Shown one piece after another: positions 6,625 through 62,042 of a stretch of DNA of 64,000 nucleotides; positions within the stretch are counted from its first letter, which is position 1, and each line of letters starts with the position of its first letter. Source of the stretch: an uncultured Methanosarcinales archaeon (lineage in GTDB: Archaea; Nanobdellota; Nanobdellia; Woesearchaeales; JABIAG01); contig CAZJAJ010000001.1 of assembly GCA_964544335.1 (NCBI GenBank), forward strand, positions 29,199 through 93,198, in the 5' to 3' direction. A program made the translations under genes and the position numbers. Below the pieces are notes generated by a model, which saw nothing but the letters and a program-made list of their open reading frames with translations, was not told the origin of the DNA and ran no database searches.

Positions 6625-6894
6625 TTATTCTGTGTGATTATTTTCCATGTGATCATCTTCCATATGGTTCTCTTCCATGTGTTCTTCATCATGGTCATCT
6701 TCCATAGCATGATCTTCATCTGAATGGTTGTCATCCATATGATCACCTTCCATGTGTTCATCATGATCTTCTGCTGCATGGTCACTTATACCATCACCGT
6801 CATGATCATGATTATCAACAAGATCAGTACTACATCCCACTACAAACAATAAAGAAAGTAGCATACCTAACAATAATAACATATATTTTTTCAT
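6625..6894 (-). CDS. His/Asp/Glu-rich secreted lipoprotein, putative metal-binding (zinc) protein
   Basis: Lipobox LLFVVGCST, then repeated H-D/E motifs (EDHDEHMEGDHMDDNHSDEDH...); directly adjacent to a ZIP transporter. Confidence 0.6.
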   Translation of the reverse strand: MKKYMLLLLGMLLSLLFVVGCSTDLVDNHDHDGDGISDHAAEDHDEHMEGDHMDDNHSDEDHAMEDDHDEEHMEENHMEDDHMENNHTE

Positions 6895-6903
6895 TTTTTC
6901 CCC

Positions 6904-7806
6904 CTAATGACTATGCCCAGGTGCATAGATGGTAAGTGCGATAATAATTCCAACACCAAGAAGTATTGCAAATACATGTAATACGGTATCTTTAACTCCA
7001 TGGTGTCTGTGCAGTTGTGGGACTAAACTAGATGCTGCGATATACAGAAAATTTCCAGCAGCAATTGCAAGTATTATTCCTGTTGCACCACTAATTTTTT
7101 CAATAAGCACATACCCCACAATTACCCCCAATATTGCAAAGAGTGCTGAAAAGAAATTGAAGATTAATGCCTTTGTTTTAGAAAGTCCTGCATAGAGTAA
7201 AATGCCAAAGTCTGCTACTTCCATTGGTATCTCGTGAAGTACAATTGAAATAGTGGCTCCAATACCAAGTGGGACGCTCACTGCATAACTTCCTGCAATA
7301 ACTAGTCCATCAATAAAATTATGAAACCCTTCACCTAGAAGATTAAGTGGTGCCAGGTGGTATGCGTGACCATGAACATGGCATTCAACATCATGATCGT
7401 GATCATGGTCGTGGTGATGAATTTCTTTGTCATGATGATGGTGATGCGAATGTACAAATTTTTCAACAATAAACATCAATAAGAATCCTCCAATGATGTA
7501 AAGCACGGTCCCAATAGTGTAAGAATGTGCAAGTAATTCAGGAACAAAATCTATAAAAACAATGGATAAGAGTACACCTACAGAAAGGCTCAGTAAGAAA
7601 AGAAGCAAACGTTCTGAAATTTTCTTTTTAAGAAGCAGTGGAACTATAGCAACCACTGATACTAATGATACAATAATTGCACTACTGATTGATAATATAA
7701 GTGTCATGCATTCATGAGATGGGATATCTTTATAAAGTTTAATGATTCTCATTCTCAATAAGAATGAAAACACGACAGACACGGCAAAAAGAGATACTTC
7801 AAGCAA
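6904..7806 (-). CDS. zupT: ZIP family metal (zinc) transporter, ZupT-like
   Basis: HNFIDGLVIA and HEIPMEVADFGILL motifs; His-rich loop HHHHHDKEIHHHDHDHDHD; multiple TM segments. The likely true start is the internal MTLILS at about 7707. Confidence 0.85.
   Translation of the reverse strand: MLEVSLFAVSVVFSFLLRMRIIKLYKDIPSHECMTLILSISSAIIVSLVSVVAIVPLLLKKKISERLLLFLLSLSVGVLLSIVFIDFVPELLAHSYTIGTVLYIIGGFLLMFIVEKFVHSHHHHHDKEIHHHDHDHDHDVECHVHGHAYHLAPLNLLGEGFHNFIDGLVIAGSYAVSVPLGIGATISIVLHEIPMEVADFGILLYAGLSKTKALIFNFFSALFAILGVIVGYVLIEKISGATGIILAIAAGNFLYIAASSLVPQLHRHHGVKDTVLHVFAILLGVGIIIALTIYAPGHSH
7749..7767. promoter_or_regulatory. candidate Zur/Fur operator (perfect 7-5-7 inverted repeat TCATTCT-CAATA-AGAATGA)
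   Basis: Perfect palindrome in the divergent region between the ZIP transporter and the Fur-family regulator; overlaps the regulator ATG. Embedded in AATGATTCTCATT, resembling the Fur box half-site GATAATGATAATCATTATC. Confidence 0.5.
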
Positions 7807-8120
7807 TCATTGACAAACAAACACACTTTTTTGGTGCAGAAGATATTTATGAGAAGGCAAAGAACGATCAAATAAGTCTTGCAACCATTTATCGTTTTCT
7901 CAAAGAGCAAGAAAAGAATAATGAGCTCTATATGTACCGATGCGAAGGAAGAAGCATTTATAGTAAGCACAAGAAGAGTCACTGCCATTTCATATGTGAA
8001 GAAACAGGCAAAGTAATACACTTTGATATAGATTCACTTGATTTTCTTAAAAATAAAATTCCTGGAGACATTAATAGTTTTCACATTGAAGTAAGAGGAA
8101 TATGTAAGAAGTGTAAATAA
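7764..8120 (+). CDS. zur: Fur family transcriptional regulator (probably Zur)
   Basis: N-terminal wHTH ...ISLATIYRFLKEQEKN...; C-terminal HCHFICEETGKVIHF and CKKCK metal sites. Confidence 0.8.
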   Translation: MKTRQTRQKEILQAIIDKQTHFFGAEDIYEKAKNDQISLATIYRFLKEQEKNNELYMYRCEGRSIYSKHKKSHCHFICEETGKVIHFDIDSLDFLKNKIPGDINSFHIEVRGICKKCK

Positions 8121-9648: not shown

Positions 9649-10146
9649 CTATTCTACGACAAAGCGTGGGTTTGTTTGCGTAATAGTTACAGAGGAATCT
9701 GAACACGTCAGTAATTCATTACCAGAAAGTTCAAGTGGAATAAGCGTTACTTCATACACCCGTTCTACTTCATCACTATTTACAATGGTTTTTACAATTC
9801 CTACATCAAATGGTGCAAGCTGTTGGCTTACTTGCTGTGTGTATCCTTGTGTGTAGTCGTTATTAAAGAATTTGAGTAAGAATCCATCTATTGCAACACC
9901 TTGATTATCTATGGTAACTAATACAGAATTATCTGCAGTCGTGTATTTTACGGTTTTCACACTATAGGAAAGTGCACTACAAGAGCTTTCAGGAAGTCCG
10001 CCTGCTTGCGTAACATAATCTTGACCAAGACTCATGACAATTGATCCAAGTGCTACAGCAACTGCGATAAGAAAAATGGTTGCAATGAGCGGTGATATTC
10101 CTCTATTATTCATGACGTAATCTCTCCTTTTCGTGAAACAATACAC
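9649..10146 (-). CDS. archaeal type IV pilin-like protein (class III signal peptide)
   Basis: MNNRGISPLIATIFLIAVAVALGSIV N-terminus typical of prepilin-peptidase substrates; the likely start is MNNRG. Confidence 0.6.
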   Translation of the reverse strand: MYCFTKRRDYVMNNRGISPLIATIFLIAVAVALGSIVMSLGQDYVTQAGGLPESSCSALSYSVKTVKYTTADNSVLVTIDNQGVAIDGFLLKFFNNDYTQGYTQQVSQQLAPFDVGIVKTIVNSDEVERVYEVTLIPLELSGNELLTCSDSSVTITQTNPRFVVE

Positions 10147-13427: not shown

Positions 13428-13802
13428 CTACTGAACAATCAGCAGACCTTTATTTTCTTCAATACGATTACCGTATCCATACATGCCTGTTTCCACTGCA
13501 TCAACAGTAAATACTGCAGTTGCCGTTGCTGGAATTTCTTCTTCGTGTAGGCCTTCAACAATAAAGATCATGTCTTCATTACCAAGATTACTTACTTCGA
13601 ATTGTACGGTGTCGCCTTGTTGTACAGTGATTTGATCAAGTTCTGGTACGCTATCTTCCATTCTTAGGATGATATGGTGTACTTGACCTTCTGTTTCAAC
13701 ATCAACTACCTGAGCATGTACGCTAGTATCTGCTTCAGGAACGTATTGTGTACTGCAACCTACAGCAAACAATAGTAGTGCTAAAATTAGGAATTGTTTC
13801 AT
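13428..13802 (-). CDS. secreted lipoprotein, hypothetical (possibly cupredoxin-like beta fold)
   Basis: Lipobox LLLFAVGCST. Confidence 0.4.
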   Translation of the reverse strand: MKQFLILALLLFAVGCSTQYVPEADTSVHAQVVDVETEGQVHHIILRMEDSVPELDQITVQQGDTVQFEVSNLGNEDMIFIVEGLHEEEIPATATAVFTVDAVETGMYGYGNRIEENKGLLIVQ

Positions 13803-19721: not shown

Positions 19722-19883
19722 TTATTTCTTTTGCCAGCTGTATGAACGTAGCTTAGCAGTTTTACCATAGCCACATGAACTGCAGGTTTTCTTACTGGTG
19801 TGGTAACACATCTTACCGCATCGCCGACACTTTATGGTGTTGGTCTTTCCAGATTTTTTACCAAAACTTGCTGTTCCTTTCAT
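19722..19883 (-). CDS. rpl37e: 50S ribosomal protein L37e (53 aa, below the ORF-track cutoff)
   Basis: Manual translation [53 protein letters not shown] (C4 zinc ribbon). Its ATG overlaps the upstream Sm gene stop (ATGA). Confidence 0.85.
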
Positions 19884-20113
19884 TGTGGTGAAATAAAGAT
19901 GATGGTATCTCCTCGAATGAAGATTTTACCAAGACTTCGCTTGGTCTCACCATCTACCCGTTCCTCAGTATTATCTAGGACGGTATTAATGTGAATATCA
20001 AATGAGACTAAGTTACCAACGAACTGTTTTCCGTTTTTGAGTTCAACTATTACACGCTTGTTTCTTGCAGCGTTTAATGCATCAAGTGGTCTTGAGTTTT
20101 CCATACACGTCAT
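19880..20113 (-). CDS. archaeal Sm-like protein (SmAP)
   Basis: [38 protein letters not shown]....[11 protein letters not shown] gives Sm1/Sm2 motifs. Confidence 0.85.
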
Positions 20114-20146
20114 GAAACAGGGTCGCTTTTTAAAGGTTACTAATTA

Positions 20147-20938
20147 TTACTCACTAGAATCACTTGGATCTGCAGAATCAACTGATGCATTTTCCTTTGC
20201 TTTTTCTAATGCTTCTGCTTCTGCAATTATTTGAGGAAGCTCAAAGGTTCTTCGACAAAACTGCATATTTTCAAACGCACTCATTCGCTTACATGCAGAC
20301 GTATCACCATTCATGGCAACCACCCAAAGACAGTTATCCTTACCTGAAGAAAGTTCATCACACGTTGTTTTATTGACGATATTTCCCTCAGAAGGAGGAG
20401 ATGGTGTGAATCGAAGTTCATCAAATGCATTACGATAGCAAAACTCCTTGCCTGTTACTTGATAAGTGTGATTTGCATCCTCTCTAAAGTTATACACAAA
20501 TTCGGTAGCATTATCACAATAGATAATGGACTCGTCAGTAACATTCTTATCAATGAGATGAATGAGGCACGCATCCCTGAGTATCATGATAGATTCATTT
20601 TCTGCATGATCGATGAAATCACCAAGGCGTGTTGCATTAAATGCATCTTGCTCACTATACGATAAGCAAGATTCAGGAGTGGTAAGTGATGAGAAAAAGA
20701 GATCAAGTGCATCAGGTTCTTTTACTGGTTCTGATGCAGAACATCCTACGAGCAATAGTGCACATATAGCGACGATAACAAGCAGTGTGTGTTTCATGCA
20801 AAAACCTGAATATTTCTCCTTAATAAATATTACGACGATAGGAATAAAAGAATAAGATTTATAAAAGGATCTGGGTTTCAGGAAGACATGATCACACGAA
20901 AACGATCCAATAGAAAAGCTACAACCGGTAGATACCAC
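20147..20938 (-). CDS. Cys-rich secreted lipoprotein, hypothetical
   Basis: Internal start MKHTLLVIVAICALLLVGCSAS (lipobox); many Cys; acidic C-terminus. Confidence 0.45.
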   Translation of the reverse strand: MVSTGCSFSIGSFSCDHVFLKPRSFYKSYSFIPIVVIFIKEKYSGFCMKHTLLVIVAICALLLVGCSASEPVKEPDALDLFFSSLTTPESCLSYSEQDAFNATRLGDFIDHAENESIMILRDACLIHLIDKNVTDESIIYCDNATEFVYNFREDANHTYQVTGKEFCYRNAFDELRFTPSPPSEGNIVNKTTCDELSSGKDNCLWVVAMNGDTSACKRMSAFENMQFCRRTFELPQIIAEAEALEKAKENASVDSADPSDSSE

Positions 20939-21259
20939 AATGGTCGTAAAAAACGACAGTCAGAACTTGGTAGACTTCCTACAATGACTAAAGTAGGAGA
21001 AACCAGAGCTAAGACTGAACGAGTACGTGGTGGAAACGAAAAACAGCGTGTTCTACAATCAAATACAGTGAACTTATTCGACGGTAAAAAATACGTTAAA
21101 GCAACTATTAAACGTGTAGTTGAAAATCTTGCAAACCGAAACTTTATTCGGCGAAACATTATCACCAAAGGTGCCATTGTTGAAACCGACAAAGGAAATG
21201 CAAAGATTACCTCACGACCTGGTCAATCAGGTAGCCTTAACGCAGTTCTTGTAAAATAA
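20888..21259 (+). CDS. rps8e: 30S ribosomal protein S8e
   Basis: RKATTGRYHNGRKKRQSELGR ... NLANRNFIRRNIITKGAIVETDKGNAKITSRPGQSGSLNAVLV. Confidence 0.9.
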   Translation: MITRKRSNRKATTGRYHNGRKKRQSELGRLPTMTKVGETRAKTERVRGGNEKQRVLQSNTVNLFDGKKYVKATIKRVVENLANRNFIRRNIITKGAIVETDKGNAKITSRPGQSGSLNAVLVK

Positions 21260-21304: not shown

Positions 21305-21760
21305 ATGTGGAATCCTTTTAAGAAAAAATCCGACTCATTTGATGACGATGGATTAGATAGTCCTTTCTCAGGAGAGGGCAAATACCCACCAGGCGCAGAT
21401 CCAATGCAATCACCATTTCCTTCTAGTAACGATATGGGAAGTTCAGATCCATTCTCAAGACCTGATCCACTTGGAACGCCATCATTTCCACCAAGCATGG
21501 GACAACAAGAACAAATGCCTTCTTTTCCATCTCAAGAACCTATGAGACCTACACCAAATGGGTTTGGAAATCCACGGCCTATTTTATCTGAAGAACGACC
21601 ACTACCATCAGTACCACCTGTGCAACAATCAAATACCGGTGATAAAATGGAAGTAGTTATTGCAAAACTTGATAGTCTTAGATCCATGATGGATGTTATG
21701 AACCAGCGTATTGCGAATCTTGAAAATAAACTGGGTAATAACAACAATAGACAATGGTAA
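21305..21760 (+). CDS. Pro-rich low-complexity protein with C-terminal coiled coil, hypothetical
   Basis: ORF; P/S/F repeats then a heptad-like C-terminus. Confidence 0.35.
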   Translation: MWNPFKKKSDSFDDDGLDSPFSGEGKYPPGADPMQSPFPSSNDMGSSDPFSRPDPLGTPSFPPSMGQQEQMPSFPSQEPMRPTPNGFGNPRPILSEERPLPSVPPVQQSNTGDKMEVVIAKLDSLRSMMDVMNQRIANLENKLGNNNNRQW

Positions 21761-22185
21761 AGAATTTCTGGCACATCATCGTGAGCATAGTTGCACTTGA
21801 TCAAATCACTAAAGCACTTGTTGCAACATATACTCCAAATATTTCACTGCTTCCTTTCTTTTCATTAGTTACCGTAAAAAATTATGGTGCGGGATTTGGC
21901 ATTCTACAAGGACAACAATACATTCTTATTGCCATTTCACTTCTGGTACTTGCAGGTATTGTGTACTTTAGAAAAAGTATTGCAAAAGAAGATCATCTTG
22001 CGTTTGCATTAATCACTGGCGGACTTATTGGAAATCTTATTGATAGAATTTTTCGCAGATATGTGATTGATTTCTTTGATTTTTTTATTGGAACCTATCA
22101 CTGGCCTGCGTTTAATGTTGCAGATATTGCACTTGTTGTTGGTGTTGCATTGTTGATTATTAACGAAATAAGAAAGAAGAAATAG
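21754..22185 (+). CDS. lspA: lipoprotein signal peptidase (signal peptidase II)
   Basis: ALDQITK, NYGAGFG, GGLIGNLIDR, VIDFFDF and FNVADIAL match all conserved LspA blocks. Confidence 0.85.
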   Translation: MVKNFWHIIVSIVALDQITKALVATYTPNISLLPFFSLVTVKNYGAGFGILQGQQYILIAISLLVLAGIVYFRKSIAKEDHLAFALITGGLIGNLIDRIFRRYVIDFFDFFIGTYHWPAFNVADIALVVGVALLIINEIRKKK

Positions 22186-22190
22186 ATCTG

Positions 22191-23057
22191 TTAGTCAATT
22201 AACTTTTCTTCAAGAAATTTTCCCGACTGTTTTTTTAGAAAAGGAAAGTATAACATGGATTGGTAATGGCCACAGGGAAGATATGATGTTTCTGGTTGGT
22301 GAAGAGCTTTTCTAAAAAGTTCGGATTGCCTTGTTGGGACGGTTGTATCTTTTTCTGCAATTATCAAATATACAGATGTAGGGTCAATGTATGGTGCAAA
22401 ATCAATTGGATCAGGCGCAGTGAGTGTGTCAAGATCAATCTTTTTTCTTAGACGGCGCAATATTCCTTCCTCAGATGTTTCAAATATTTTTGGTATATCT
22501 CCACCCGTTAACATAAACACGTGTGCTGAACTCTCAACTCGTCCTGCAATGGTTGAACCAACAATACCACCAAGGCTAAAACCTACAATACCCAGCTTCC
22601 CTTTTTCATATGTTCTTAGCCAAGATGCGACATCACATCCTTCTTGATGAATAGTTGCTGCCCACTGTTCAAGTTCTGATTGCGTAAATGATTCTTCTAT
22701 TTCATCTGACTTTAATACGCATCCATTCATGCCATTTCTTGCATAGTGTTTTGCAAGAAGGTGCGCTAAGATATCGGGTCCTTTGAGCTGCGGGATTACA
22801 AGTACAGAGTTATTTTCCCCGTGTGCATTATACATCGTTATCTTTGAATTACCCAGTGTATATTTTTCAACAATATATGATGATTTTTTTGTAGTTGATA
22901 CGTGTGTTGGCTTTCGCATTGGAATATAGACTTCTTTTTGTAGTGGTTGTGGTTGATGTGTTGCTGCAGGAATAGTTGAAGGTGTTCTACAGCTTGTTGT
23001 AAGTAGCAGTGAAAGGCTAATGCAAGAGAGTAGTTTTTGGCTGCGCATGAAATCCAA
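22191..23057 (-). CDS. alpha/beta hydrolase, secreted or lipoprotein
   Basis: GFSLGG nucleophile elbow; N-terminal signal with Cys (LLLTTSC). Confidence 0.6.
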   Translation of the reverse strand: MDFMRSQKLLSCISLSLLLTTSCRTPSTIPAATHQPQPLQKEVYIPMRKPTHVSTTKKSSYIVEKYTLGNSKITMYNAHGENNSVLVIPQLKGPDILAHLLAKHYARNGMNGCVLKSDEIEESFTQSELEQWAATIHQEGCDVASWLRTYEKGKLGIVGFSLGGIVGSTIAGRVESSAHVFMLTGGDIPKIFETSEEGILRRLRKKIDLDTLTAPDPIDFAPYIDPTSVYLIIAEKDTTVPTRQSELFRKALHQPETSYLPCGHYQSMLYFPFLKKQSGKFLEEKLID

Positions 23058-24510
23058 GCTCCTTTACTTTTTTCTTTACACCCTTTGCAAGAAAATGCAT
23101 CGAGTCACCTTCATTAAGAACCGTACTATGTAGTGTAACTGATTCTGGACTAAGAGCACCTGCATCAATTTTTTTTCTAAGCCACTTAAGAAAATCAAGT
23201 CCATCATTTTTTGCCGTAAATCCACCACCCATAATACTTAAATCCATGTCTGTTAGAATTACTTCTGCTTGTGGTGCAAGGGACTTTGCTTGCGCAAGTG
23301 TTCCTGCTTGCAATACATGATATCCTTGCTGTTCATAGATTTTCACGAGTCTATCTCTGGTGTGTTTTTTATCTTCAACAATTAATGCAACGGGCTTTGT
23401 TGGTTGTTCTTGTTGTTGTTTTTCAGATAATTGTGCAAGATAATACGGAAGAAGGAAATCTATGCCAAAGTACTGTGCTTCACCAGAATTACCCAGATTT
23501 TCTCGTGCGTGAAAGGGATTTTTTTTCCATACATTATAGTGTGTCCCTCTTGCATACACGGGAAGTGGTTCTTTTACTTGATGCTTCCAACCATTCTTCA
23601 CCCACACCATCCGTTGTGTTCTGTGAAGTATTTCTCTGTTCGTATTAAGAAGAGGATATTCGTTGAGTATCTCTAAAGGATCTTGTGAAGGAATACCGTT
23701 GAGTTGTGCTATTGCTTCAAAAAGTGCATTATCTTCATCTGATTGTGTCACATAGTGACGTTCAAGTGCAATTTTGTATTCAGGAGAGGGATTAAAGTTC
23801 ATAAGTGCTCCAAGACGTATCATGAATAACCAATCACTGCTATGTGTTGGTACTTTAACAATGCCTGCATCAATTTCAAGGTTTCTTATTTTTTTAAGAT
23901 AATTTGCCCGAATGCATTCTTGAAGTAGAGCATCTGCTTCTTTAGAGGGTGCCATTTTTTTCAACCCTTCTGCAAGTACCAATGTATCAAGTACCCTACT
24001 ACGAGAGAGTTTCATTTTTGAAACACGAAGGTCGCTATGTGTTCCTGGAAGTTCAAGATCGTTCTCAAAAAGCATTGCACTAATTTCTGATGCATGTGCT
24101 TGTACATCTTCTCTTTCTTGCATAAAACTGTAGGCAAAAAGTAATTGAGAGAGTTTATTTGCAGAAAGAGCTTCAGCAGTAAGTGAACTAAATGTCTGCA
24201 CCATTTCAGCTATGCGTCGACTATCCTTTTCATTTGGATCAGTATGCTGTTTTACTGCAAGTGCTGCAAGATATTGCATGGTTGAGTCAATGTGTGCTTC
24301 ACCACGAGAGTTTTGTGGAACCATCCCTGCATCAAGTGGAACACGTTCTGAGAAATACTGTTCTTTGAAAGATAGATCATACGCTGCCTGTTCTTTTCTT
24401 AGAGCAATGTGCTCAAGAGAACTATCGTATCTATGTTGTTCAATAGAGCTACACCCTGCAACTAATAAGGATGCTACAGATGCGGCTATTGGTTTTACAA
24501 ATCTATTCAT
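23017..24510 (-). CDS. predicted lipoprotein with C-terminal response-regulator receiver (REC)-like domain
   Basis: Lipobox LLVAGCSS; C-terminal VALIVEDKK...ILTDMDL...HST...FLAKG has the REC DD/D/T/K spacing. Confidence 0.45.
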   Translation of the reverse strand: MNRFVKPIAASVASLLVAGCSSIEQHRYDSSLEHIALRKEQAAYDLSFKEQYFSERVPLDAGMVPQNSRGEAHIDSTMQYLAALAVKQHTDPNEKDSRRIAEMVQTFSSLTAEALSANKLSQLLFAYSFMQEREDVQAHASEISAMLFENDLELPGTHSDLRVSKMKLSRSRVLDTLVLAEGLKKMAPSKEADALLQECIRANYLKKIRNLEIDAGIVKVPTHSSDWLFMIRLGALMNFNPSPEYKIALERHYVTQSDEDNALFEAIAQLNGIPSQDPLEILNEYPLLNTNREILHRTQRMVWVKNGWKHQVKEPLPVYARGTHYNVWKKNPFHARENLGNSGEAQYFGIDFLLPYYLAQLSEKQQQEQPTKPVALIVEDKKHTRDRLVKIYEQQGYHVLQAGTLAQAKSLAPQAEVILTDMDLSIMGGGFTAKNDGLDFLKWLRKKIDAGALSPESVTLHSTVLNEGDSMHFLAKGVKKKVKELGFHAQPKTTLLH

Positions 24511-25245
24511 CTACTTTTTCTTTTTAGTTACCTTCTTTTTAGTTGTTTTCTTTTTGGTAGCTTTTTTAGTAGACTTTTTGGATGATTTTTTAGTGGTTTT
24601 TTTTGCAACTTTTTTCTTTGCAGGAGTTTTCTTAGTGGCTTTTTTCTTCGTTACTTTCTTCGTTACTTTTTTTGTTGATGTTTTAGATTTCTTAGCTGCT
24701 TTTTTTGTCACTTTGGTAGGTGCTACTTGTTCTTTCTCAAGTGCAACTGCTGCCTGAGCAGATCCATCCATGACAATAGTACCTTCAAGATCAGTATTCT
24801 CTCTGTTTTTTGCAGCAACATCAAATGCTGCCCGTAGTTTATCAAATGCTGCTTCTGTTGAAATTTTTTCTTCTTGTAGTGTTTTCATTTCTGGTTCGTA
24901 TTCAGCAGTAAATTCATAGGAACTTACACGCTTTACTGTACCTGCAAAAACACATACTATGAAGGAAATTACTTGGAGTACAATAAGCACGAATCGAGTA
25001 ATGGTTGCGCTTTGTACAAACAAGAAGAGCATGTAACTAATAGTAAAGGCAAAGATGATCATGGAAAGAATGTACCCTTCTTTTCTATCGTTGCCCACCA
25101 TGATGAGTGAGACCATTGCAAGAATGGAAAAGAGTGCAAAGATTACAAGGTCACTTGATGTGATCGCCTGTTCTAGTGTAGTGATCAACATATACACAAA
25201 TGAGAGTGCATAGGTAATAAATATAGTTAGGTATGCTCGATTCAT
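24511..25245 (-). CDS. membrane protein with Lys-rich histone-H1-like C-terminal tail
   Basis: Four TM helices then KKxTKK repeats over ~70 aa. Confidence 0.45.
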   Translation of the reverse strand: MNRAYLTIFITYALSFVYMLITTLEQAITSSDLVIFALFSILAMVSLIMVGNDRKEGYILSMIIFAFTISYMLFLFVQSATITRFVLIVLQVISFIVCVFAGTVKRVSSYEFTAEYEPEMKTLQEEKISTEAAFDKLRAAFDVAAKNRENTDLEGTIVMDGSAQAAVALEKEQVAPTKVTKKAAKKSKTSTKKVTKKVTKKKATKKTPAKKKVAKKTTKKSSKKSTKKATKKKTTKKKVTKKKK

Positions 25246-30160: not shown

Positions 30161-31258
30161 ATGAAAGCTCAATGGTTTATTCGCGTATTTTTAGTAGGAT
30201 ATCATGTACTACTTTTTACATTACTACCTACCTACATCATTCTTTTTGGAGTACCCAGTATTAGTATTGTACTGTGGACCGTTTTCTTGTTTGCAGCATG
30301 TAATTTATCCATTACTACAGGATATCACAGGTTGTATGCACATAGAAGTTATAATGCATCAAAAATCGTTGAGGTTCCACTCTTATTTTTCTCCACATTA
30401 AGTCTGCAGGGAAGCGCTATTGCATGGAGTGCTGACCACAGAACGCACCACAGGCATGTTGATACAGATAAAGACCCATATAATATTGAGCGTGGGTTTT
30501 GGTATGCACACATGGGATGGTTATTTGAAGACCGTGTTGTTGATATTACCAATGTAAAGGATTTACAACAGCAAAAAATGCTCATGATACAGCACAAGTA
30601 CTACATTCTTCTTGCAACACTTGCAAATGTAGTAGTTACAGTTGGGCTTGGAATGATTTTAGGAGAAGTATTTGCCGCTATTGTCTTTATCTTCTTGCTG
30701 CGCCTATTTTTAACGCATCACACCACGTTTTTCATTAATTCACTTGCGCACACATGGGGCTCTAGGCCATATTCAAGAGAGCATAGTGCAGTCAATAACT
30801 TTGTTATTTCTTTGCTTACATTTGGAGAAGGGTATCATAACTATCATCACACCTTTGCAGGAGATTATAGAAATGGCGTTAGATGGTATCAATATGACCC
30901 TACTAAGCTGCTTATTTGGACCATGAGTAAATGTGGTCTTGCACAAGATCTTAAACGAAGCAATAGATATTCTGCAACACTACGATTAATCAACGAAGAC
31001 AGAAAAGAGATGCTCAATGAAATGAGGTTGAAAGGGATTGCTCGCTATAAGGCAATTGAGTCTGACATACAGCATAAATATAAGATGCTCATAGAAGATC
31101 TTCAGGGTTTGCATCGTCAAGTACAGGCGTATAAAGATGCTGCTCAACTAAAAAAGGATGAGAAACGATTGCTTAAAGCACAAATCAGAAGTCAACGTCT
31201 TCGTGTGAAAAAAAGTTTCAAAGCGTGGTCACTTTTGTGCAAACATGTGTTTGGATAA
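30161..31258 (+). CDS. acyl-CoA (stearoyl-CoA type, delta-9) fatty acid desaturase, membrane
   Basis: Three His boxes HRLYAHR, HRTHHRH and HNYHHTF with TM helices; coiled-coil C-terminal extension. Confidence 0.8.
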   Translation: MKAQWFIRVFLVGYHVLLFTLLPTYIILFGVPSISIVLWTVFLFAACNLSITTGYHRLYAHRSYNASKIVEVPLLFFSTLSLQGSAIAWSADHRTHHRHVDTDKDPYNIERGFWYAHMGWLFEDRVVDITNVKDLQQQKMLMIQHKYYILLATLANVVVTVGLGMILGEVFAAIVFIFLLRLFLTHHTTFFINSLAHTWGSRPYSREHSAVNNFVISLLTFGEGYHNYHHTFAGDYRNGVRWYQYDPTKLLIWTMSKCGLAQDLKRSNRYSATLRLINEDRKEMLNEMRLKGIARYKAIESDIQHKYKMLIEDLQGLHRQVQAYKDAAQLKKDEKRLLKAQIRSQRLRVKKSFKAWSLLCKHVFG

Positions 31259-44854: not shown

Positions 44855-45376
44855 ATGGTCGATAAAAACGAACAATTACAAGAAGAACAAAAGAATGACG
44901 TGCTAGAAGAAGCACTTGATAACGCAAAAAGACAAGCAGAACACAACACCGATGACAAAGTCAAAGAACTCACCTCTACTATACAACACCTCCAAGCTGA
45001 CTTTGAGAACTATCGGAAACGAACAGAAAAAGAGCGAGTAGAACTCAAAAGTCTCTTCAAAAAAGACTTTCTCAAAAATATGCTCCCTACGTTAGATATG
45101 TTTGATCTTGCACTACAGCATAAAAGCAACCATGAAGAATTCCTTAAGGGAGTTGAAATGATTTACGCTCAATTTCTAGGAACACTAGAAAGCGAAGGCG
45201 TTGAAGAAATTAAAGACACAGAAAACTTCAACCCAAGCAAACACGAAGCTGTACTTACCGATGATGGTGAGGATGGCAAGATCCTAGAAGTATTACAAAA
45301 AGGCTACACGCTCAATGGTGAAGTTATCCGATGCACCAGAGTTAAAGTAGGTAAACAACCAAAGGAGACGCAATAA
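44855..45376 (+). CDS. grpE: nucleotide exchange factor GrpE
   Basis: [15 protein letters not shown]... core GrpE motifs; upstream of dnaK. Confidence 0.9.
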
Positions 45377-45377
45377 A

Positions 45378-47207
45378 ATGGCAGAACAAGGAAAAGCAAT
45401 TGGAATTGATTTAGGTACAACGTTTTCTGCAGTTGCAGTAATCGAAGGTGGTAAACCAACCATTATACCTAATGCAGAAGGAGATAGAACAACACCATCA
45501 GTAGTACTTATCAAAGACGGAGAGAGAACCGTTGGTAAGCACGCACGAAATCAGGCAGTAATGAATCCTGAACATACCATTAGATCCATTAAACGATTGA
45601 TGGGTACTGATGAAAAAGTAAACATTGATGGAAAAGACTACTCACCACAAGAAGTATCAGCAACTATTCTACAAAAACTCAAAGCAGATGCTGAAAGCTA
45701 CCTTGGAAGAAAAGTTACTGATGCAGTCATTACCGTTCCAGCATACTTTAATGATGCTGAACGTCAAGCAACAAAAGATGCTGGGAAAATTGCAGGTCTA
45801 AATGTACTTAGAATTGTAAACGAACCAACCGCAGCATCTTTAGCATACGGGCTTGACAAATCACAAGACCACACCGCACTTGTATTTGATTTTGGTGGAG
45901 GTACGTTTGATGTATCTGTACTAGAACTTGGCGATGGCGTCTTTGAAGTAAAATCTACTGCAGGAGATAATAGACTTGGTGGAGATGATGTTGACCAAGT
46001 AATTATTGACAAACTCGCAGAAGACTTCAAGAAAGAACAAAATATTGATCTTAGATCTGATAAGCAAGCACTACAGCGACTTAAAGAAGCTGCAGAAAAA
46101 GCAAAAATTGAACTGAGTTCAAAACCAACAACTGATGTAAACCTTCCGTTCATCACCTCCGATGCAAACGGTCCAAAACACCTTACTCGAACCATTAAAC
46201 GAGCTGAGTTTGATCAATGGATTCAAACAATCCTTGACAAGCTCAAAGGACCAACACAGCAAGCAATCAAAGATGCTGGCGATGTAAAAATTGACAAAGT
46301 AATCCTGGTAGGTGGTTCAACACGAATCCCTGCAGTACAAGACATTGTTAAGAAGATTACTGGCATTGACCCTGACAAATCCGTTAACCCTGATGAGGCA
46401 GTAGCACTTGGTGCTGCAGTACAAGCAGGTATTCTTGGCGGAGAAGTAAAGGATGTATTGCTTCTTGATGTTACACCTCTAAGCCTTGGTATTGAAACAC
46501 TCGGTGGTGTTTTTACCAAATTAATTGAGCGAAACACCACCATTCCTACCAAGAAGTCTCAGATCTTCTCTACTGCAGCAGACAATCAACCTGCAGTAAC
46601 AGTTCGAGTCTTCCAAGGGGAACGATCCATGGCAGCAGACAATAAACTGCTTGGTCAATTTGATCTTGAAGGTATTCCACCAGCACCACGAGGTGTTCCA
46701 CAAATTGAGGTGACATTTGATATCGATGCAAATGGTATCGTAAATGTTAAAGCAGTGGACAAAGGAACCAATAAAGAGCAAAAGATCACCGTGACCGGTT
46801 CTAGTAACCTAAGCGATGATGAGATCAAGAAGATGCAGGAAGCTGCAGAACAACACGCTGAAGAGGATAAGAAAAAAGCAGAAGAAGTAATCCTCTACAA
46901 TGAAGTGGATAACTTGATCTATCAGTCTGAGAAGATGAAAGATGAGTACAAGGATAAACTTGATAAAGCTCAGCTTGAAGAACTCGATAAAGAACTTGAG
47001 GAAATCAAGAAACTTCGTGACGAAAAGAATACAGACGCACTTAAAGCAAAGATGGACGAATTAAACAAAAAGGTCCAAGAGATGGGCGCGGCTATGTATA
47101 AACAGCAAGCAGAAGCTGCTGCTCAAAATCCTGATGAAAAGAAGGATGATGGCGTTGTTGATGCTGAAGTGGTTAACGAAGAGAAGACTGACGATAAAAA
47201 AGAATGA
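45378..47207 (+). CDS. dnaK: molecular chaperone DnaK (Hsp70)
   Basis: [34 protein letters not shown] and EEVD-like acidic tail. Confidence 0.97.
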
Positions 47208-47360
47208 ATGAAGCAATAACTATTGCTGCTCTTCTTCTTATTTTTCTTTTTGTAAGAAGAGTTGTTAAGAATTCGATGATCTCTGCAAAAAAAACGCGAA
47301 TCATCAAAGATGAATTACTTGACATAGTGAACAATCCAAAGTACAAAGTGAGGGGCAAGT

Positions 47361-48431
47361 ATGAGTAAGGACTATTACAAGATTCTTGGTGTTGAAAAAA
47401 ACGCATCTAAAGAAGAGATTAAGAAAGCATACAAGAAACTTGCAAAAAAATACCACCCTGATTTAAACAAAGACGACCCAGAAGCCGAAGCAAAGTTCAA
47501 GGAAGCATCAGAGGCTGCTGCAGTACTTGGCGATGAGCAAAAGAGGCAACATTACGATCAATTTGGCACCGCAGATAATCCTTTTGGCGGTGGACAAGGC
47601 GGTCAAGGGTTTTCTGGATTTGAAGATATCTTCGGAGACATTTTCTCTGGTTTTGGCGGATTTGGTGGAAGAGGTAATCGACGGCCAACACGAGGAAACG
47701 ATCTACAGTACGAATTATCAATTACGCTCGAAGAAGCATACAAGGGCGTTGAAAAACAAATTAAAATTCCTAAATACGATACTTGCAAAGCATGTTCTGG
47801 TTCTGGTGCAAAGTCACCTGATGCAGTAGATACCTGTGGTACATGTCATGGACAAGGTGTGGTGAATAGACAAACACGAACACCGTTTGGTGTGTTTAAT
47901 ATGCAATCCACCTGTCCTTCCTGTAAGGGAGATGGAAAAACAATTACTGATCCGTGTATGGAGTGTCATGCAAGCGGTAGAGTTGAAGTAACCAAAAATA
48001 TCAAAGTTAAAATTCCAGCAGGTGTGCACACCCGTTCACAACTACGTGTTGCAGGCGAAGGAGAGGCAGGAGAACATGGCGTACCACCTGGCGATTTGTA
48101 TGTATTTATCCACGTAGAACAACACGATGTATTTACACGAAAGAATGATGACATCATAATCAAACATCAAATTCCATTTTCCATGGCAGCACTTGGCGGA
48201 GAAATTGATGTGCCAACACTTGATGGCAAAGCAACACTCAAAGTACCTGCAGGGACCACTGCTGGAACTATTCTAAGAATGAAAGGACGAGGTATCCCAC
48301 ACCTTGGCAGGTCATCATCTGGTGATTTACATGTGGTGATTGACATCCAAGTACCTAAGAAAGTGTCCAAAAAAGCACGAAAGCTCCTTGAAGATCTTGA
48401 CAAAGAGATTGAGAAGAAGGGCTGGTTCTAA
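47361..48431 (+). CDS. dnaJ: molecular chaperone DnaJ (Hsp40)
   Basis: J domain with HPD (KKYHPDLNK), G/F-rich region, four CxxCxGxG repeats. Confidence 0.95.
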
Positions 48432-48477: not shown

Positions 48478-49056
48478 ATGAAGATCTATTCATGGCTTGT
48501 TGCACTGAGTTTATTACTGCTTATTGCAAACTTCACATTTGATAACACGCAAGTGCAAGATTTTCTCATAACCCATCACTCTAACTCTGATAATGCCATT
48601 GAAGAAAATAGAGCAATATTGAATTTTTTACAAACAGGCGAACTTACTGTAACTCTTACGGTTGAAGAATATGAACATATGCAAGATGTACGAAATGTGA
48701 AAAAGACATTTGCAATGATATCCATAGCCATTATTGTATGCACGCTCCTACTATACTGGTTTAAACGACCAGAGATTAATTTTACACCCGTGGTAAACGC
48801 TACTGCAATTATTATTGCGCTCATTGCAGTACTTCCGGGTAAAATATTTGAACTATTCCATGAAGTAGTATTTCATCAAGGTAACTACACCTTTGCAACA
48901 GATTCATTTCTAATAACGCTTTATCCAGGAGAATATTTCTTTGCACTTACCGCATGGATTTTAGGTGTAACATTATTACTCTTAATCAGCGTAGAATGTG
49001 CACGAAAGCATTACTGGCGACGTAATTTTCTAGTAAGACTATTTATCAAAGAATGA
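48478..49056 (+). CDS. membrane protein, hypothetical
   Basis: Four TM helices. Confidence 0.35.
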   Translation: MKIYSWLVALSLLLLIANFTFDNTQVQDFLITHHSNSDNAIEENRAILNFLQTGELTVTLTVEEYEHMQDVRNVKKTFAMISIAIIVCTLLLYWFKRPEINFTPVVNATAIIIALIAVLPGKIFELFHEVVFHQGNYTFATDSFLITLYPGEYFFALTAWILGVTLLLLISVECARKHYWRRNFLVRLFIKE

Positions 49057-57752: not shown

Positions 57753-58184
57753 TTAGGTGTTTAAGGAAAGTACTTGACCTGCGATCAGAATTTCACAAAT
57801 GCCATCTTCTCCATCTGCATGTAATAGGTCTGCTTCAAAAACATGAATACGAATATTTTGGACAACATCATTTGATCCTTCTTTAATCCATGCCGTTTCA
57901 CCATTTACTTTAATGCCACAGGTGTCTGCTTCTCTATTTACACCCACAAGAGAAATGGTAGTTATGCCGCCTTTTTTAGGTTCTGCTGCTTCTTCTGCTT
58001 GTTCTTGTTGCTTTAATTCTTCTACTTCTGCCTTTTCAGCAGAGGATGGGAAGAGTGGTTTTGCGGTAAGATCTGATGCAGAAGGTGGTTCATAATCAAT
58101 TAAACCAGACTGACCAGTAAAACTACAACCGGCACAGATAAACACTGCGTAGATACACACGATGAGAATGGAGAGTCTACCCAT
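57753..58184 (-). CDS. secreted lipoprotein, hypothetical
   Basis: Lipobox FICAGCSF. Confidence 0.4.
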   Translation of the reverse strand: MGRLSILIVCIYAVFICAGCSFTGQSGLIDYEPPSASDLTAKPLFPSSAEKAEVEELKQQEQAEEAAEPKKGGITTISLVGVNREADTCGIKVNGETAWIKEGSNDVVQNIRIHVFEADLLHADGEDGICEILIAGQVLSLNT

Positions 58185-61601: not shown

Positions 61602-62042
61602 TTATTGAACTGTTTTTACAATTCGTCCTTTTGCTGTGTGTGCAAGACCTGAGTCGCTGTTCACATATGAAATGTTCACATCTTCTTGGAATCTTGATCC
61701 AGCTGTTAATGCAGGACTACATGTCACGACAAAAGTATCTTGTTCGCCGTTAACAATTGTTGTGTTTGATACGTTTGTACCACAATCGTTAATTGCAACA
61801 GTTACGTTTTCCATGTCAAACCCTAGTCCATTTAACATAACTATTGTTACTCCTGAAGCAGCTGTTGCTTGTGCGTCTACACAGTTGATACCACTTTGCA
61901 TTGTACATGTCTCAGGTAGGAATCTTTCTGGAGAAAGAACACCAAAGAATGCCAGTGCTGCGATAGAGGCAAGTACTACTAATATTGCCCAACCGTATGT
62001 CATCAAGAACTCAAGTGCTGCTTGACCTCTATTATTTACCAT
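61602..62042 (-). CDS. archaeal pilin-like protein (class III signal)
   Basis: MVNNRGQAALEFLMTYGWAILVVLASIAALAFF. Confidence 0.6.
   Translation of the reverse strand: MVNNRGQAALEFLMTYGWAILVVLASIAALAFFGVLSPERFLPETCTMQSGINCVDAQATAASGVTIVMLNGLGFDMENVTVAINDCGTNVSNTTIVNGEQDTFVVTCSPALTAGSRFQEDVNISYVNSDSGLAHTAKGRIVKTVQ

What the first reader, a model, noticed from the sequence alone, without database searches (positions are those of the whole stretch)
21754..22185. Bacterial-type lipoprotein signal peptidase (LspA) in an archaeal context with many lipobox proteins
The ORF has every conserved LspA block: N.GaaFg, GGalgNliDR, VvDffdf and FNvADiai. At least five proteins in the window carry strong canonical lipoboxes: VVGC at 6625, AVGC at 13428, LVGC at 20147, VAGC at 23017 and AGCS at 57753. 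A sixth, weaker candidate is LTTSC at 22191. How archaea process lipobox proteins is poorly resolved and Lsp homologs are generally considered absent. An LspA here would indicate a bacterial-like lipoprotein pathway acquired by this lineage.
Basis: partly seen in the sequence, partly recalled or inferred. Interest (0 to 1): 0.6.

Follow-up and report, generated by a model that had tools for sequence, protein, structure and literature searches.

The report
Bacterial-type lipoprotein signal peptidase in archaea
A small DPANN archaeon (Woesearchaeota/Nanoarchaeota) carries a complete, apparently active copy of the bacterial enzyme that trims lipoprotein signal peptides, an enzyme that reviews say archaea lack; it belongs to a large archaeal family and is nearly always coupled to a small uncharacterised partner gene.

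Summary
ORF 21754-22185 (+) is a full-length LspA (signal peptidase II). It scores 124 bits against Pfam PF01252 and 113 bits against TIGR00077, above both curated cut-offs. Both catalytic aspartates are present, and the AlphaFold model matches solved LspA structures at TM-scores of 0.81-0.92.

The contig is archaeal. Ribosomal protein S8e, LSm and L37e lie within 2 kb, and GatD, GINS and S-layer genes are also in the window. The same gene order recurs in independent Woesearchaeota MAGs and metagenomes, so mis-binning is excluded.

A profile of the archaeal sequences retrieves at least 120 close relatives. All 14 that carry an organism name are Nanoarchaeota, Woesearchaeota or Nanobdellota, and NCBI already labels them 'signal peptidase II'. 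Reviews from 2018 and 2025 nevertheless state that no archaeal Lsp homolog exists, and I found no paper that mentions this family.

Five window ORFs pass a strict lipobox rule and a sixth passes a relaxed reading. Two of the lipoboxes are kept in orthologs.

No Lgt was found in the window or in about 0.8 Mb of related archaeal loci, so the lipidation step is unresolved.

One result is new. lspA is coupled to a small conserved partner gene in 9 of 9 archaeal loci and follows it in 67 of 74 metagenomic loci. The partner is absent from 80 bacterial lspA loci.

The parts
21754..22185 (+). lspA: lipoprotein signal peptidase (signal peptidase II, peptidase family A8), 143 aa. Catalytic D106 (22069-22071) and D124 (22123-22125).
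   Evidence: Pfam PF01252 124 bits and TIGR00077 113 bits, both above cut-off. Aligns to 6RYO and 5DIR. AF2 model pLDDT 92.7; Foldseek TM 0.92 to 6RYP. 16 residues invariant across 120 relatives.
21305..21760 (+). Conserved partner ORF, 151 aa. N-terminal MWNPFKKK motif, Pro/Ser-rich disordered linker, and C-terminal helix EVVIAKLDSLRSMMDVMNQRIANLE...RQW. Its stop overlaps the lspA start (ATGGTAA, 7 nt).
   Evidence: Present directly upstream of lspA in 9 of 9 independent archaeal loci. No match at E<=1 in 80 bacterial lspA loci. 59 clusters found among 1.84 billion representatives. lspA lies downstream in 67 of 74 loci found by the partner motif alone. No Pfam, NCBIfam or PDB family.
24511..25245 (-). 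Conserved neighbour, convergent to lspA: 4-TM N-terminal domain plus a Lys-rich tail, 244 aa. Function unknown.
   Evidence: Homologs lie immediately downstream of lspA in L003, L086, L088, L089, L090, L091 and L093. An HMM built without the window protein scores it at 65.5 bits, E 2e-19. In the window it is separated from lspA by two lipobox genes.
22191..23057 (-). Candidate substrate: alpha/beta-hydrolase-like protein with signal peptide and lipobox LTTSC (Cys codon 22989-22991).
   Evidence: Passes the PROSITE-like lipobox rule. Of its Pfam alpha/beta-hydrolase hits, only ABHD18 (25 bits) clears its cut-off of 21.
23017..24510 (-). Candidate substrate: 497-aa protein with lipobox LVAGC (Cys codon 24451-24453).
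   Evidence: Sub-threshold Response_reg hit in the C-terminal part (24.5 bits, cut-off 30.2).
20147..20797 (-). Candidate substrate: 216-aa protein (start at Met 20797) with lipobox LLVGC (Cys codon 20741-20743), between LSm and S8e.
   Evidence: The ortholog in L084 (8237-8878) keeps the lipobox as LVAGC.
13428..13802 (-). Candidate substrate: cupredoxin-like protein with lipobox FAVGC (Cys codon 13755-13757).
   Evidence: Pfam Cupredoxin_1 35.7 bits. Lipobox rule passed. The ortholog in L084 (562-945) keeps LAVGC.
6625..6894 (-). Candidate substrate: 89-aa protein with lipobox FVVGC (Cys codon 6832-6834), next to a ZIP metal transporter.
   Evidence: The ZIP neighbour at 6904-7806 is shown.
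57753..58184 (-). Weaker candidate substrate: 143-aa protein with ICAGC (Cys codon 58125-58127).
   Evidence: Signal-peptide-like N-terminus. Fails the strict rule because of Cys at -3.
48478..49056 (+). Tentative: distant member of the Lit/TIGR01906 membrane-protein family (Lit is the lipoprotein intramolecular transacylase of Firmicutes). Downstream of grpE-dnaK-dnaJ.
   Evidence: Pfam PF07314 at 40.1 bits (cut-off 24), full-length match. The NCBIfam Lit equivalog scores only 22.5 bits (cut-off 400) and TIGR01906 35.2 bits (cut-off 74.8). Only one other close homolog in 5.8 billion proteins.
19722..21259 (.). Context markers showing archaeal origin: L37e (19722-19883, -), LSm (19880-20113, -), S8e (20888-21259, +).
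   Evidence: Pfam hits of 70, 84 and 116 bits. The same block lies beside lspA in L003, L084, L085 and L089, and within 10 kb of the partner gene in 13-20 of 80 metagenomic loci.

Best explanation
This is a functional lipoprotein signal peptidase of bacterial type. It is a four-helix membrane aspartyl protease with catalytic dyad D106/D124. An ancestor within the Nanoarchaeota/Woesearchaeales (DPANN) most likely acquired it from bacteria, and the lineage has kept it since.

It most likely removes the signal peptide just before the lipid-modified cysteine of lipobox proteins exported by this archaeon. At least five such proteins are encoded in the window.

In these archaea lspA is translated from a conserved two-gene unit with a small partner protein. 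The partner has an N-terminal basic or amphipathic motif, a disordered linker and a C-terminal helix. A 4-TM protein usually lies beside the pair.

Shown: family membership, intact active site, fold, archaeal genomic context, vertical conservation, presence of lipobox ORFs, and the partner linkage.

Inferred: catalytic activity, the substrates, the bacterial origin and donor, and any role for the partner.

Unknown: which enzyme lipidates the cysteine (bacterial Lgt elsewhere in the genome, or an archaeal AliA-type enzyme) and which lipid is attached.
For: Family membership: Pfam and NCBIfam scores are above the curated cut-offs.

Active site: D106 and D124 align to the catalytic D118 and D136 of S. 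aureus LspA. They are invariant, together with N43, G45, G90, G93, N94, D97, R98, P118, F120, N121 and A123, across 120 relatives with 47% mean column identity.

Fold: the AF2 model has pLDDT 92.7. Only LspA structures match it (6RYP, 6RYO, 5DIR; TM 0.81-0.92, E about 1e-11); the next hit has E>1.

Archaeal context and synteny: the window carries S-layer, L37e, LSm, S8e, partner, lspA, UPPS, GatD and a desaturase. These recur, in whole or in part, in GCA_018675265.1, in two ENA metagenome contigs and in JGI 3300023199. Other archaeal contexts (aIF-1A, aIF-2, Topo VI, RIO1) occur in L088, L091 and L093.

Coherent archaeal family: the archaeal profile's top 120 hits score 160-222 bits. All 14 with organism names are Nanoarchaeota, Nanoarchaeia, Nanobdellota or Woesearchaeota.

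Substrates: lipobox ORFs are 6 of 94 chosen ORFs against 1 of 130 decoys, and the lipobox is kept in orthologs.

Partner: present in 9 of 9 archaeal loci with an [A/G]TGGTAA junction. lspA follows in 67 of 74 loci retrieved by the partner motif alone. No match in 80 bacterial loci.

Bacterial affinity: NJ trees place the archaeal sequences beside Firmicutes-type LspA (lspA-rluD and PolC contexts) and Lentisphaerae LspA.
Against: There is no biochemical evidence.

No Lgt was found in the window or in about 0.8 Mb of related archaeal loci, so the normal prerequisite for LspA cleavage is not documented. AliA/AliB could not be searched for lack of a query sequence.

The phylogeny is unresolved. 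Archaeal monophyly has 0-9% NJ bootstrap support, so a single acquisition and the donor are inferred mainly from the shared partner-gene arrangement.

Lipobox density in other loci of the lineage is low (7 of 921 ORFs).

The window is only 64 kb of a contig of at least 351 kb.
Confidence: 0.85

Rival explanations
1. The contig is bacterial or chimeric (mis-binned or mis-assembled), so the LspA is an ordinary bacterial gene.
For: LspA is near-universal in bacteria. The closest non-archaeal relatives are 45-50% identical.
Against: S8e ends 495 bp upstream of lspA; LSm and L37e are within 2 kb. GatD, GINS, L44e-like, S-layer and NFACT genes are spread over the window. The same gene order occurs in independent assemblies from NCBI, ENA, JGI and Logan. 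GC content is flat at 0.32-0.41 with no step at the gene.
Confidence: 0.01
2. Full bacterial pathway. The lineage also carries a bacterial Lgt elsewhere in the genome and possibly ester-linked, fatty-acid lipids. In that case LspA cleaves diacylglyceryl-cysteine prolipoproteins exactly as in bacteria, and the Lit-like protein might remodel them.
For: LspA in bacteria requires prior Lgt action (established knowledge). Woesearchaeota are reported to carry bacterial fatty-acid and G3P lipid genes and may be episymbionts of bacteria (PMC8204110). The window encodes a DesA-family fatty-acid desaturase that is conserved in L084 and L085 and a Pfam-level Lit-family protein.
Against: No Lgt in the window, in 9 archaeal lspA loci, or in 636 kb of partner-anchored loci. 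In contrast, 14 of 80 bacterial lspA loci have lgt adjacent. The Lit match fails the NCBIfam equivalog cut-off by a wide margin. Only neighbourhoods were searched, not whole genomes.
Confidence: 0.35
3. Hybrid pathway. Cysteine lipidation is done by an archaeal enzyme (AliA/AliB-type or another), attaching an archaeal or scavenged lipid. The acquired LspA supplies the cleavage step, whose enzyme is still unidentified in other archaea.
For: AliA (arCOG02177) is reported in DPANN 'with some gaps', and lipobox proteins are reported as prevalent in DPANN (PMC12462473). No Lgt lies near any archaeal lspA examined. The archaeal lspA has its own conserved partner and 4-TM neighbour, which bacterial loci lack.
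Against: No AliA homolog could be searched for here, and none of the multi-TM ORFs in the window looks like one. It is unknown whether LspA accepts ether-linked isoprenoid-modified cysteine.
Confidence: 0.4
4. The protein keeps the LspA fold and dyad but serves another role. Examples would be a decoy or immunity paralog against globomycin- or TA-type antibiotics made by neighbouring bacteria, or a protease for non-lipoprotein substrates together with its partner.
For: Extra LspA paralogs with resistance roles are known in some bacteria (my own knowledge, not tested here). The tight coupling to an uncharacterised partner is not seen in bacteria. Lipobox density elsewhere in the lineage is low.
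Against: It appears to be the only LspA copy in the loci examined. All substrate-binding and catalytic residues conserved in bacterial LspA are invariant. Canonical lipobox ORFs are present and conserved.
Confidence: 0.08

Closest known systems
Bacterial LspA (signal peptidase II, MEROPS A8), e.g. S. aureus 6RYO/6RYP and P. aeruginosa 5DIR
   Same: Same family by curated HMM thresholds. Same catalytic Asp dyad and the same conserved N-x-G-A-x-F-G, G-N-x-x-D-R, V-x-D-F and F-N-x-A-D blocks. Same predicted four-helix plus beta-cradle fold (TM 0.81-0.92). 31-34% identity to the solved structures and 45-50% to the closest bacterial sequences.
   Different: The host is an archaeon. The protein is short (about 143 aa against 155-170). 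The gene context differs: there is no ileS, rluD or lgt neighbour, and lspA is instead translationally coupled to an archaeal-specific partner ORF and flanked by a 4-TM gene. The lipid on the substrate is unknown.
Auto-annotated 'signal peptidase II' proteins of Nanoarchaeota/Woesearchaeota MAGs (e.g. MBT3304227.1, MFO7711058.1, Woesearchaeota archaeon CG10_big_fil_rev_8_21_14_0_10_45_16)
   Same: Same archaeal family, 45-65% identical, with the same upstream partner and partly the same synteny.
   Different: The window protein is an unannotated member; its exact sequence is on an unannotated NCBI contig of 350,984 bp. None of these entries appears to have been discussed in the searched literature.
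Haloarchaeal lipoprotein biogenesis (AliA/AliB, arCOG02177/02178; Nat Commun 2025, PMC12462473)
   Same: Both act on lipobox proteins exported by archaea. In both, signal-peptide cleavage is expected to follow Cys lipidation.
   Different: AliA and AliB perform lipidation and are not LspA homologs. In that system the signal peptidase is still unidentified, and the authors state that no archaeal Lsp homolog exists. Here the peptidase is identified by homology and the lipidation enzyme is not.
Lit (lipoprotein intramolecular transacylase of Firmicutes, PF07314)
   Same: Window ORF 48478-49056 matches the Pfam family over its full length, above the gathering score.
   Different: It fails the NCBIfam Lit equivalog (22.5 against 400 bits) and TIGR01906 (35 against 74.8) cut-offs. 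It is not linked to lspA, and its function is unsupported.

Membership tests
LspA / signal peptidase II (Pfam PF01252, TIGR00077, MEROPS A8) | Full-length match to curated family models above their trusted cut-offs | tested here: met
   PF01252 at 124.1 bits (cut-off 25), covering profile positions 1-140 of 142. TIGR00077 equivalog at 112.9 bits (cut-off 73.95).
LspA / signal peptidase II (Pfam PF01252, TIGR00077, MEROPS A8) | Catalytic aspartate dyad (S. aureus D118/D136; P. aeruginosa D124/D143) | tested here: met
   D106 and D124 align to chain positions 142 and 160 of 6RYO, which are D118 and D136 after the 24-residue tag. Both are invariant in 120 sequences.
LspA / signal peptidase II (Pfam PF01252, TIGR00077, MEROPS A8) | Other strictly conserved residues around the active site and beta-cradle (Asn and Gly of N-x-G; G-N-x-x-D-R; F-N-x-A-D) | tested here: met
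   N43, G45, G90, G93, N94, D97, R98, V104, P118, F120, N121 and A123 are invariant across 120 relatives.
LspA / signal peptidase II (Pfam PF01252, TIGR00077, MEROPS A8) | Four transmembrane helices plus an extracytoplasmic beta-cradle fold | tested here: met
   AF2 model with pLDDT 92.7 and pTM 0.84. Helices at 2-26, 55-71, 78-101 and 122-142; strands at 29-43 and 104-112. Foldseek matches 6RYP at TM 0.92 and 5DIR at 0.81-0.85, with no other fold at E<1.
LspA / signal peptidase II (Pfam PF01252, TIGR00077, MEROPS A8) | Lipobox-bearing prolipoprotein substrates encoded in the same genome | tested here: met
   Five ORFs pass a PS51257-like rule and one more passes a relaxed reading. The decoy rate is 1 of 130. 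Two lipoboxes are conserved in orthologs.
LspA / signal peptidase II (Pfam PF01252, TIGR00077, MEROPS A8) | Acts after Lgt: a prolipoprotein diacylglyceryl transferase (PF01790) in the same genome | tested here: inconclusive
   No Lgt by tblastn or HMM in the window, in 9 archaeal lspA loci, or in 636 kb of partner loci. The positive control found lgt in 14 bacterial loci, two of which were confirmed as PF01790 at 240 and 267 bits. Whole genomes could not be searched.
LspA / signal peptidase II (Pfam PF01252, TIGR00077, MEROPS A8) | Cleaves N-terminal to the lipidated Cys; inhibited by globomycin or myxovirescin | not testable with these tools
   Requires biochemistry or genetics.
Archaeal AliA/AliB lipoprotein lipidation system (arCOG02177/02178) | AliA-type membrane protein with two conserved pocket arginines encoded in the genome | not tested
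   No AliA sequence or profile was available: the paper's supplements are not held and there is no Pfam or NCBIfam model. None of the window's multi-TM ORFs resembles a roughly 7-TM enzyme of this kind.
Lit (lipoprotein intramolecular transacylase) | Match to the Pfam family PF07314 above the gathering score | tested here: met
   40.1 bits (cut-off 24), profile positions 8-176 of 176, for ORF 48478-49056.
Lit (lipoprotein intramolecular transacylase) | Match to the NCBIfam Lit equivalog (NF051877) above its cut-off | tested here: not met
   22.5 bits against a cut-off of 400. TIGR01906 scores 35.2 against 74.8. No PDB match.

The most novel reading that the evidence does not exclude
In Nanoarchaeota/Woesearchaeales, a bacterial-derived LspA has been built into an archaeal lipoprotein pathway that has no Lgt. 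A non-homologous archaeal enzyme lipidates the cysteine with archaeal or host-scavenged lipid. LspA supplies the long-sought archaeal lipoprotein signal-peptidase step. It works as a unit with an archaea-specific, translationally coupled partner protein and possibly the adjacent 4-TM protein. This would be a three-gene module with no bacterial counterpart.
Probability: 0.3. Interest if true: 0.75.

Novelty: new member of a known kind. Interest (0 to 1): 0.55.

Why it matters
Reviews and the 2025 paper that identified AliA/AliB state that no archaeal genome encodes a homolog of signal peptidase II, and that the archaeal lipoprotein signal peptidase is still unknown (PMC6098224, PMC12462473). 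This window and its relatives show that the statement fails for a large DPANN lineage. A canonical LspA with an intact active site is stably inherited there, alongside lipobox proteins.

This gives a concrete, clonable enzyme with which to ask two questions. Can a bacterial-type LspA process archaeal lipid-modified cysteines? Which lipidation enzyme does it pair with?

It also adds an envelope-biogenesis gene to the list of bacterial systems kept by Woesearchaeota.

The tightly coupled partner gene is an uncharacterised protein family. Its only known genomic association is with archaeal lspA, which gives a lead on how a membrane protease is adapted to a foreign membrane.

The finding does not explain lipoprotein processing in Euryarchaeota, and the gene is already auto-annotated in public MAGs. 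The advance is recognition and context rather than a new kind of enzyme.

Tried and rejected
1. Genome-contig scan with the window LspA. It was useless for archaeal distribution, but it supplied 80 bacterial control loci.

2. NJ phylogenies with 100 bootstraps. The archaeal sequences sit near Firmicutes-type and Lentisphaerae LspA, but archaeal monophyly has only 0-9% support. I therefore make no claim about the donor or the number of transfers from trees. No maximum-likelihood program was available.

3. Lgt search. An HMM was then built from those loci. Neither found anything real in the archaeal DNA. Two hits of 17-22 bits in L103 and L127 fall on the lspA ORF itself.

4. AliA/AliB could not be tested. 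The paper's supplements are not held and no model exists in Pfam or NCBIfam.

5. The Lit-like ORF passes the Pfam threshold but fails the NCBIfam equivalog and has no PDB match. I treat it as a distant family member only, not as evidence for lyso-form lipoproteins.

6. The 244-aa membrane ORF was considered as a lipidation enzyme and rejected. It has only 4 TM helices, poorly conserved polar residues and a Lys-rich tail.

7. Partner protein. It has no consistent Pfam hit among 56 members. The only PDB near-hit is Vipp1/PspA at E 0.087, which is not significant. The first attempt to scan metagenomes with the full partner alignment failed for lack of a conserved stretch; a trimmed C-terminal alignment worked.

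8. Literature searches that combined LspA, signal peptidase II or Lgt with DPANN, Woesearchaeota or Nanoarchaeota found no paper reporting this family.
Full report
**The ORF**

ORF 21754-22185 (+) encodes a 143-aa protein. It matches Pfam Peptidase_A8 (PF01252) at 124.1 bits against a gathering score of 25, over essentially the whole profile. It matches the NCBIfam lspA equivalog TIGR00077 at 112.9 bits against a cut-off of 73.95.

By sequence it hits the three solved LspA proteins: 6RYO (S. aureus), 9EMZ and 5DIR (P. aeruginosa). In the 6RYO alignment, chain residues 142 and 160 are the catalytic D118 and D136 once the 24-residue tag is subtracted. They align with D106 and D124 of the window protein (codons 22069-22071 and 22123-22125).

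An AlphaFold2 model built on a 120-sequence alignment has mean pLDDT 92.7 and pTM 0.84, with four long helices and two beta segments. Foldseek against the PDB returns only LspA structures (6RYP TM 0.92, 6RYO 0.86, 5DIR 0.81-0.85, E about 1e-11). Every other hit has E above 1.

**Archaeal context**

The gene lies in archaeal DNA.
- Immediately upstream are ribosomal protein S8e (20888-21259), an LSm protein (19880-20113) and ribosomal protein L37e (19722-19883).
- Elsewhere in the window are two S-layer proteins, a GINS51-like protein, GatD, NFACT, and ORFs with type IV pilin-like class III signal peptides.
- GC content is even across the window.

The neighbourhood recurs in independent assemblies.
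- The 527-kb contig JABGYM010000008.1 of GCA_018675265.1, whose LspA is 59% identical and named 'signal peptidase II [Candidatus Woesearchaeota archaeon]', has S-layer, L37e, LSm, S8e ... LspA ... UPPS, GatD.
- Two ENA metagenome contigs (LspA 65% identical) share almost the whole order, including the fatty-acid desaturase after GatD.
- A JGI contig has LSm, S8e ... LspA.
- More distant members sit beside aIF-1A, aIF-2, EF-1beta, Topo VI A/B and RIO1.

**A large archaeal family**

The gene is not an oddity of one genome. A profile of 13 archaeal sequences retrieved 120 best hits of 129-162 aa scoring 160-222 bits. All 14 that carry an organism name are archaeal: Nanoarchaeota archaeon, Candidatus Nanoarchaeia, Nanobdellota, and Candidatus Woesearchaeota, including CG10_big_fil_rev_8_21_14_0_10_45_16. 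Across 120 sequences with 47% mean column identity, sixteen residues are invariant, among them both catalytic aspartates and the N-x-G, G-N-x-x-D-R and F-N-x-A-D residues. That is the pattern expected for an enzyme under selection for activity.

The nearest bacterial sequences are 45-50% identical.
- Lentisphaerae (P0010 cluster).
- A Firmicutes-type group, recognised by lspA-rluD and PolC contexts and by Virgibacillus names.

In NJ trees the archaeal sequences sit next to these groups. Strict archaeal monophyly is recovered in only 0-9% of bootstraps. I therefore treat the donor and the number of transfers as unresolved.

**Candidate substrates**

A PROSITE PS51257-like rule passes five ORFs (Cys codons in brackets).
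- 6625-6894: FVVGC (6832-6834).
- 13428-13802: cupredoxin-like, FAVGC (13755-13757).
- 20147-20797: LLVGC (20741-20743).
- 22191-23057: alpha/beta-hydrolase-like, LTTSC (22989-22991).
- 23017-24510: LVAGC (24451-24453).

The ORF at 57753-58184 (ICAGC, Cys codon 58125-58127) fails only because of a Cys at position -3.

The rule hits 6 of 94 chosen ORFs against 1 of 130 decoy ORFs. One search lists seven passes, of which two are internal GTG starts and are discounted. Two orthologs in L084 retain their lipobox.

By a cruder count over ATG ORFs of at least 80 aa, the window (5 of 116) is richer than bacterial lspA loci (52 of 2885) and than other loci of the same archaeal lineage (7 of 921). Two of the lipobox genes lie directly downstream of lspA.

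**The lipidation step is not resolved**

It was validated because it found lgt immediately beside lspA in 14 of the 80 bacterial control loci; two of those hits were confirmed as PF01790 at 240 and 267 bits.

Neither that query nor an HMM built from those loci found anything in the window, in the nine archaeal lspA loci, or in 636 kb of metagenomic loci anchored on the partner gene. The multi-TM ORFs of the window are a ZIP transporter, a DesA-type desaturase, a Lit/TIGR01906-like protein and two small unknowns.

Whole genomes could not be fetched, and no AliA/AliB sequence or profile was available. Two readings remain open, and I rate them about equally:
- 'Lgt elsewhere in the genome', meaning a full bacterial pathway.
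- 'An archaeal lipidation enzyme plus an acquired LspA', meaning a hybrid pathway.

Castelle et al. report bacterial fatty-acid and G3P lipid genes in Woesearchaeota and suggest that some are episymbionts of bacteria (PMC8204110). Together with the conserved desaturase here, this keeps the ester-lipid scenario plausible.

**A conserved partner gene**

This was not in the finding. The ORF just upstream of lspA (21305-21760, 151 aa) ends in ...RQW-stop, and its stop overlaps the lspA start (cAATGGTAAag). The same arrangement is found in all nine independent archaeal loci examined. In each, a small protein ends in a conserved helix (E-[VIL]-[VI]-x-[AS]-K-L-D-x-[LI]-[KR]-x-x-[LM]-[DE]-x-x-N-Q-R-[LI]-A-N-[LI]-E) with a terminal Trp, and the junction reads [A/G]TGGTAA.

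An HMM of this C-terminal helix has no match at E<=1 in the 80 bacterial lspA loci (1.3 Mb).

An exhaustive phmmer search of 1.84 billion representative proteins finds only 59 clusters. Apart from one 421-aa outlier and a few fragments, they are 107-175 aa long and share three features: an N-terminal M-G-x-[FL]-x-K-[LI]-x-F-W-K-K-K-D-like motif, a Pro/Gly/Gln-rich linker, and the C-terminal helix. Forty-six of the 59 end in Trp.

As an independent test, a metagenome scan seeded only with the partner's C-terminal motif returned 80 loci.
- 74 of these have at least 300 nt of downstream sequence.
- 54 have lspA within 60 nt of the partner's end.
- 13 more have lspA further downstream on the same strand.
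- 7 have no lspA.

S8e, LSm or L37e lie within 10 kb in 13-20 of the 80 loci.

The partner has no Pfam, NCBIfam or significant PDB match. The best is Vipp1/PspA at E 0.087, which I do not count.

A second conserved neighbour is a protein with four TM helices and a Lys-rich or Cys/His tail, encoded convergent to lspA. Its window ortholog is 24511-25245, scoring 65.5 bits against an HMM built without it. In the window it is displaced from lspA by the two lipobox genes. What either protein does is unknown. I infer only that the partner is co-translated with LspA.

**Comparison with what is known**

[quoted passage not shown] Six full-text searches combining LspA, SPase II or Lgt with DPANN taxa found no paper describing this family. 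The DPANN 'bacterial systems' paper does not mention lipoproteins or signal peptidases. NCBI's pipeline, on the other hand, already names many of these proteins 'signal peptidase II'.

The enzyme is thus a new, unannotated member of a known family, in a lineage where databases already list it and the literature denies it. The coupling to the partner gene appears undescribed.

**Verdict**

The enzyme, the archaeal host and the candidate substrates hold up; the claim of a complete bacterial-like pathway is unproven, and the gene is neither unique to this lineage nor unknown to databases.
- The most likely mechanism is canonical signal peptidase II cleavage of lipid-modified lipobox proteins by a horizontally acquired, vertically maintained LspA (confidence about 0.85).
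- The lipidation enzyme and the role of the partner module are open.
- Interest is moderate (0.55). The finding corrects a repeated statement in the field and gives a testable handle on archaeal lipoprotein processing. Transfer of bacterial genes into DPANN archaea is common, though, and the finding does not settle the euryarchaeal case.

Noticed in passing
window 21305-21760 (+); also L003 9655-10017, L084 9555-10007, L086 9156-10007, L088 4010-4399, L089 1793-2215, L091 9642-10007, L093 4157-4534: Small uncharacterised protein family: N-terminal MGxFxKLxFWKKKD-like motif, disordered Pro/Gly/Gln linker, and a conserved C-terminal helix that usually ends in Trp. Its stop overlaps the lspA start. 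It is specific to archaeal lspA loci and has no known family match.
   Followed up: yes
window 24511-25245 (-); L003 10714-11289, L086 10416-11015, L088 4966-5481, L089 2631-3188, L090 684-1277, L091 10979-11536, L093 4996-5592: A conserved gene convergent to lspA. It encodes a 4-TM domain followed by a Lys-rich (histone-H1-like) tail or a Cys/His 'YHxxxCxWAKxI...HxC' tail. In the window and in L084 it is displaced from lspA by inserted lipobox genes.
   Followed up: partly
window 48478-49056 (+): A membrane protein that matches the Pfam Lit family (lipoprotein intramolecular transacylase) above the gathering score but falls far below the NCBIfam Lit and TIGR01906 cut-offs. It lies just after grpE-dnaK-dnaJ. 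Only one other close homolog was found in 5.8 billion proteins.
   Followed up: partly
window 30161-31258 (+); L084 17843-18895; L085 10338-11390: A DesA-family membrane fatty-acid desaturase directly after gatD, conserved in the closest relatives. This is unusual for an archaeon and bears on whether these cells have ester-linked fatty-acid lipids.
   Followed up: partly
window 44855-48431 (+): A bacterial-type grpE-dnaK-dnaJ operon, recognised from the translations and not scanned against Pfam. It is consistent with the bacterial chaperone systems reported for DPANN (PMC8204110).
   Followed up: no
window 23017-24510 (-): A lipobox protein whose C-terminal part has a sub-threshold match to a response-regulator receiver domain (24.5 bits, cut-off 30.2). 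A receiver domain on an exported lipoprotein would be odd. Part of the protein is homologous to a separate 200-aa ORF in L084 (11054-11656).
   Followed up: no
window 6625-8120: A small lipobox protein (6625-6894) adjacent to a ZIP metal transporter (6904-7806). The overlapping divergent ORF (7764-8120) looks like a Fur-family regulator by eye and was not scanned. The lipoprotein may be part of a metal-uptake unit.
   Followed up: partly
window 9649-10146 (-) and 61602-62042 (-): ORFs with archaeal class III (type IV pilin-like) signal peptides (MNNRGISPLIATIFLIAVAV..., MVNNRGQAALEFLMTYGWAILVV...). These are a further archaeal signature and a second, independent signal-peptide processing route.
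   Followed up: no
L102, L106 (1.16-Mb contig Ga0066336_11), L107, L110, L115, L125, L171: Seven metagenomic loci carry the partner gene but have no lspA downstream. The partner can therefore occur without LspA in some genomes, or lspA has moved.
   Followed up: no
L009, L006, L007, L012, L021, L038, L042, L047, L049, L056, L063, L070, L074 (lgt directly after lspA) and L033 (lgt about 5 kb upstream on the opposite strand): In many Nitrospirota, Desulfobacterota and Elusimicrobia genomes lgt lies directly downstream of lspA; L033 (an alphaproteobacterium) has lgt nearby on the opposite strand. These were used as a positive control, and the adjacency is absent from all archaeal loci.
   Followed up: partly
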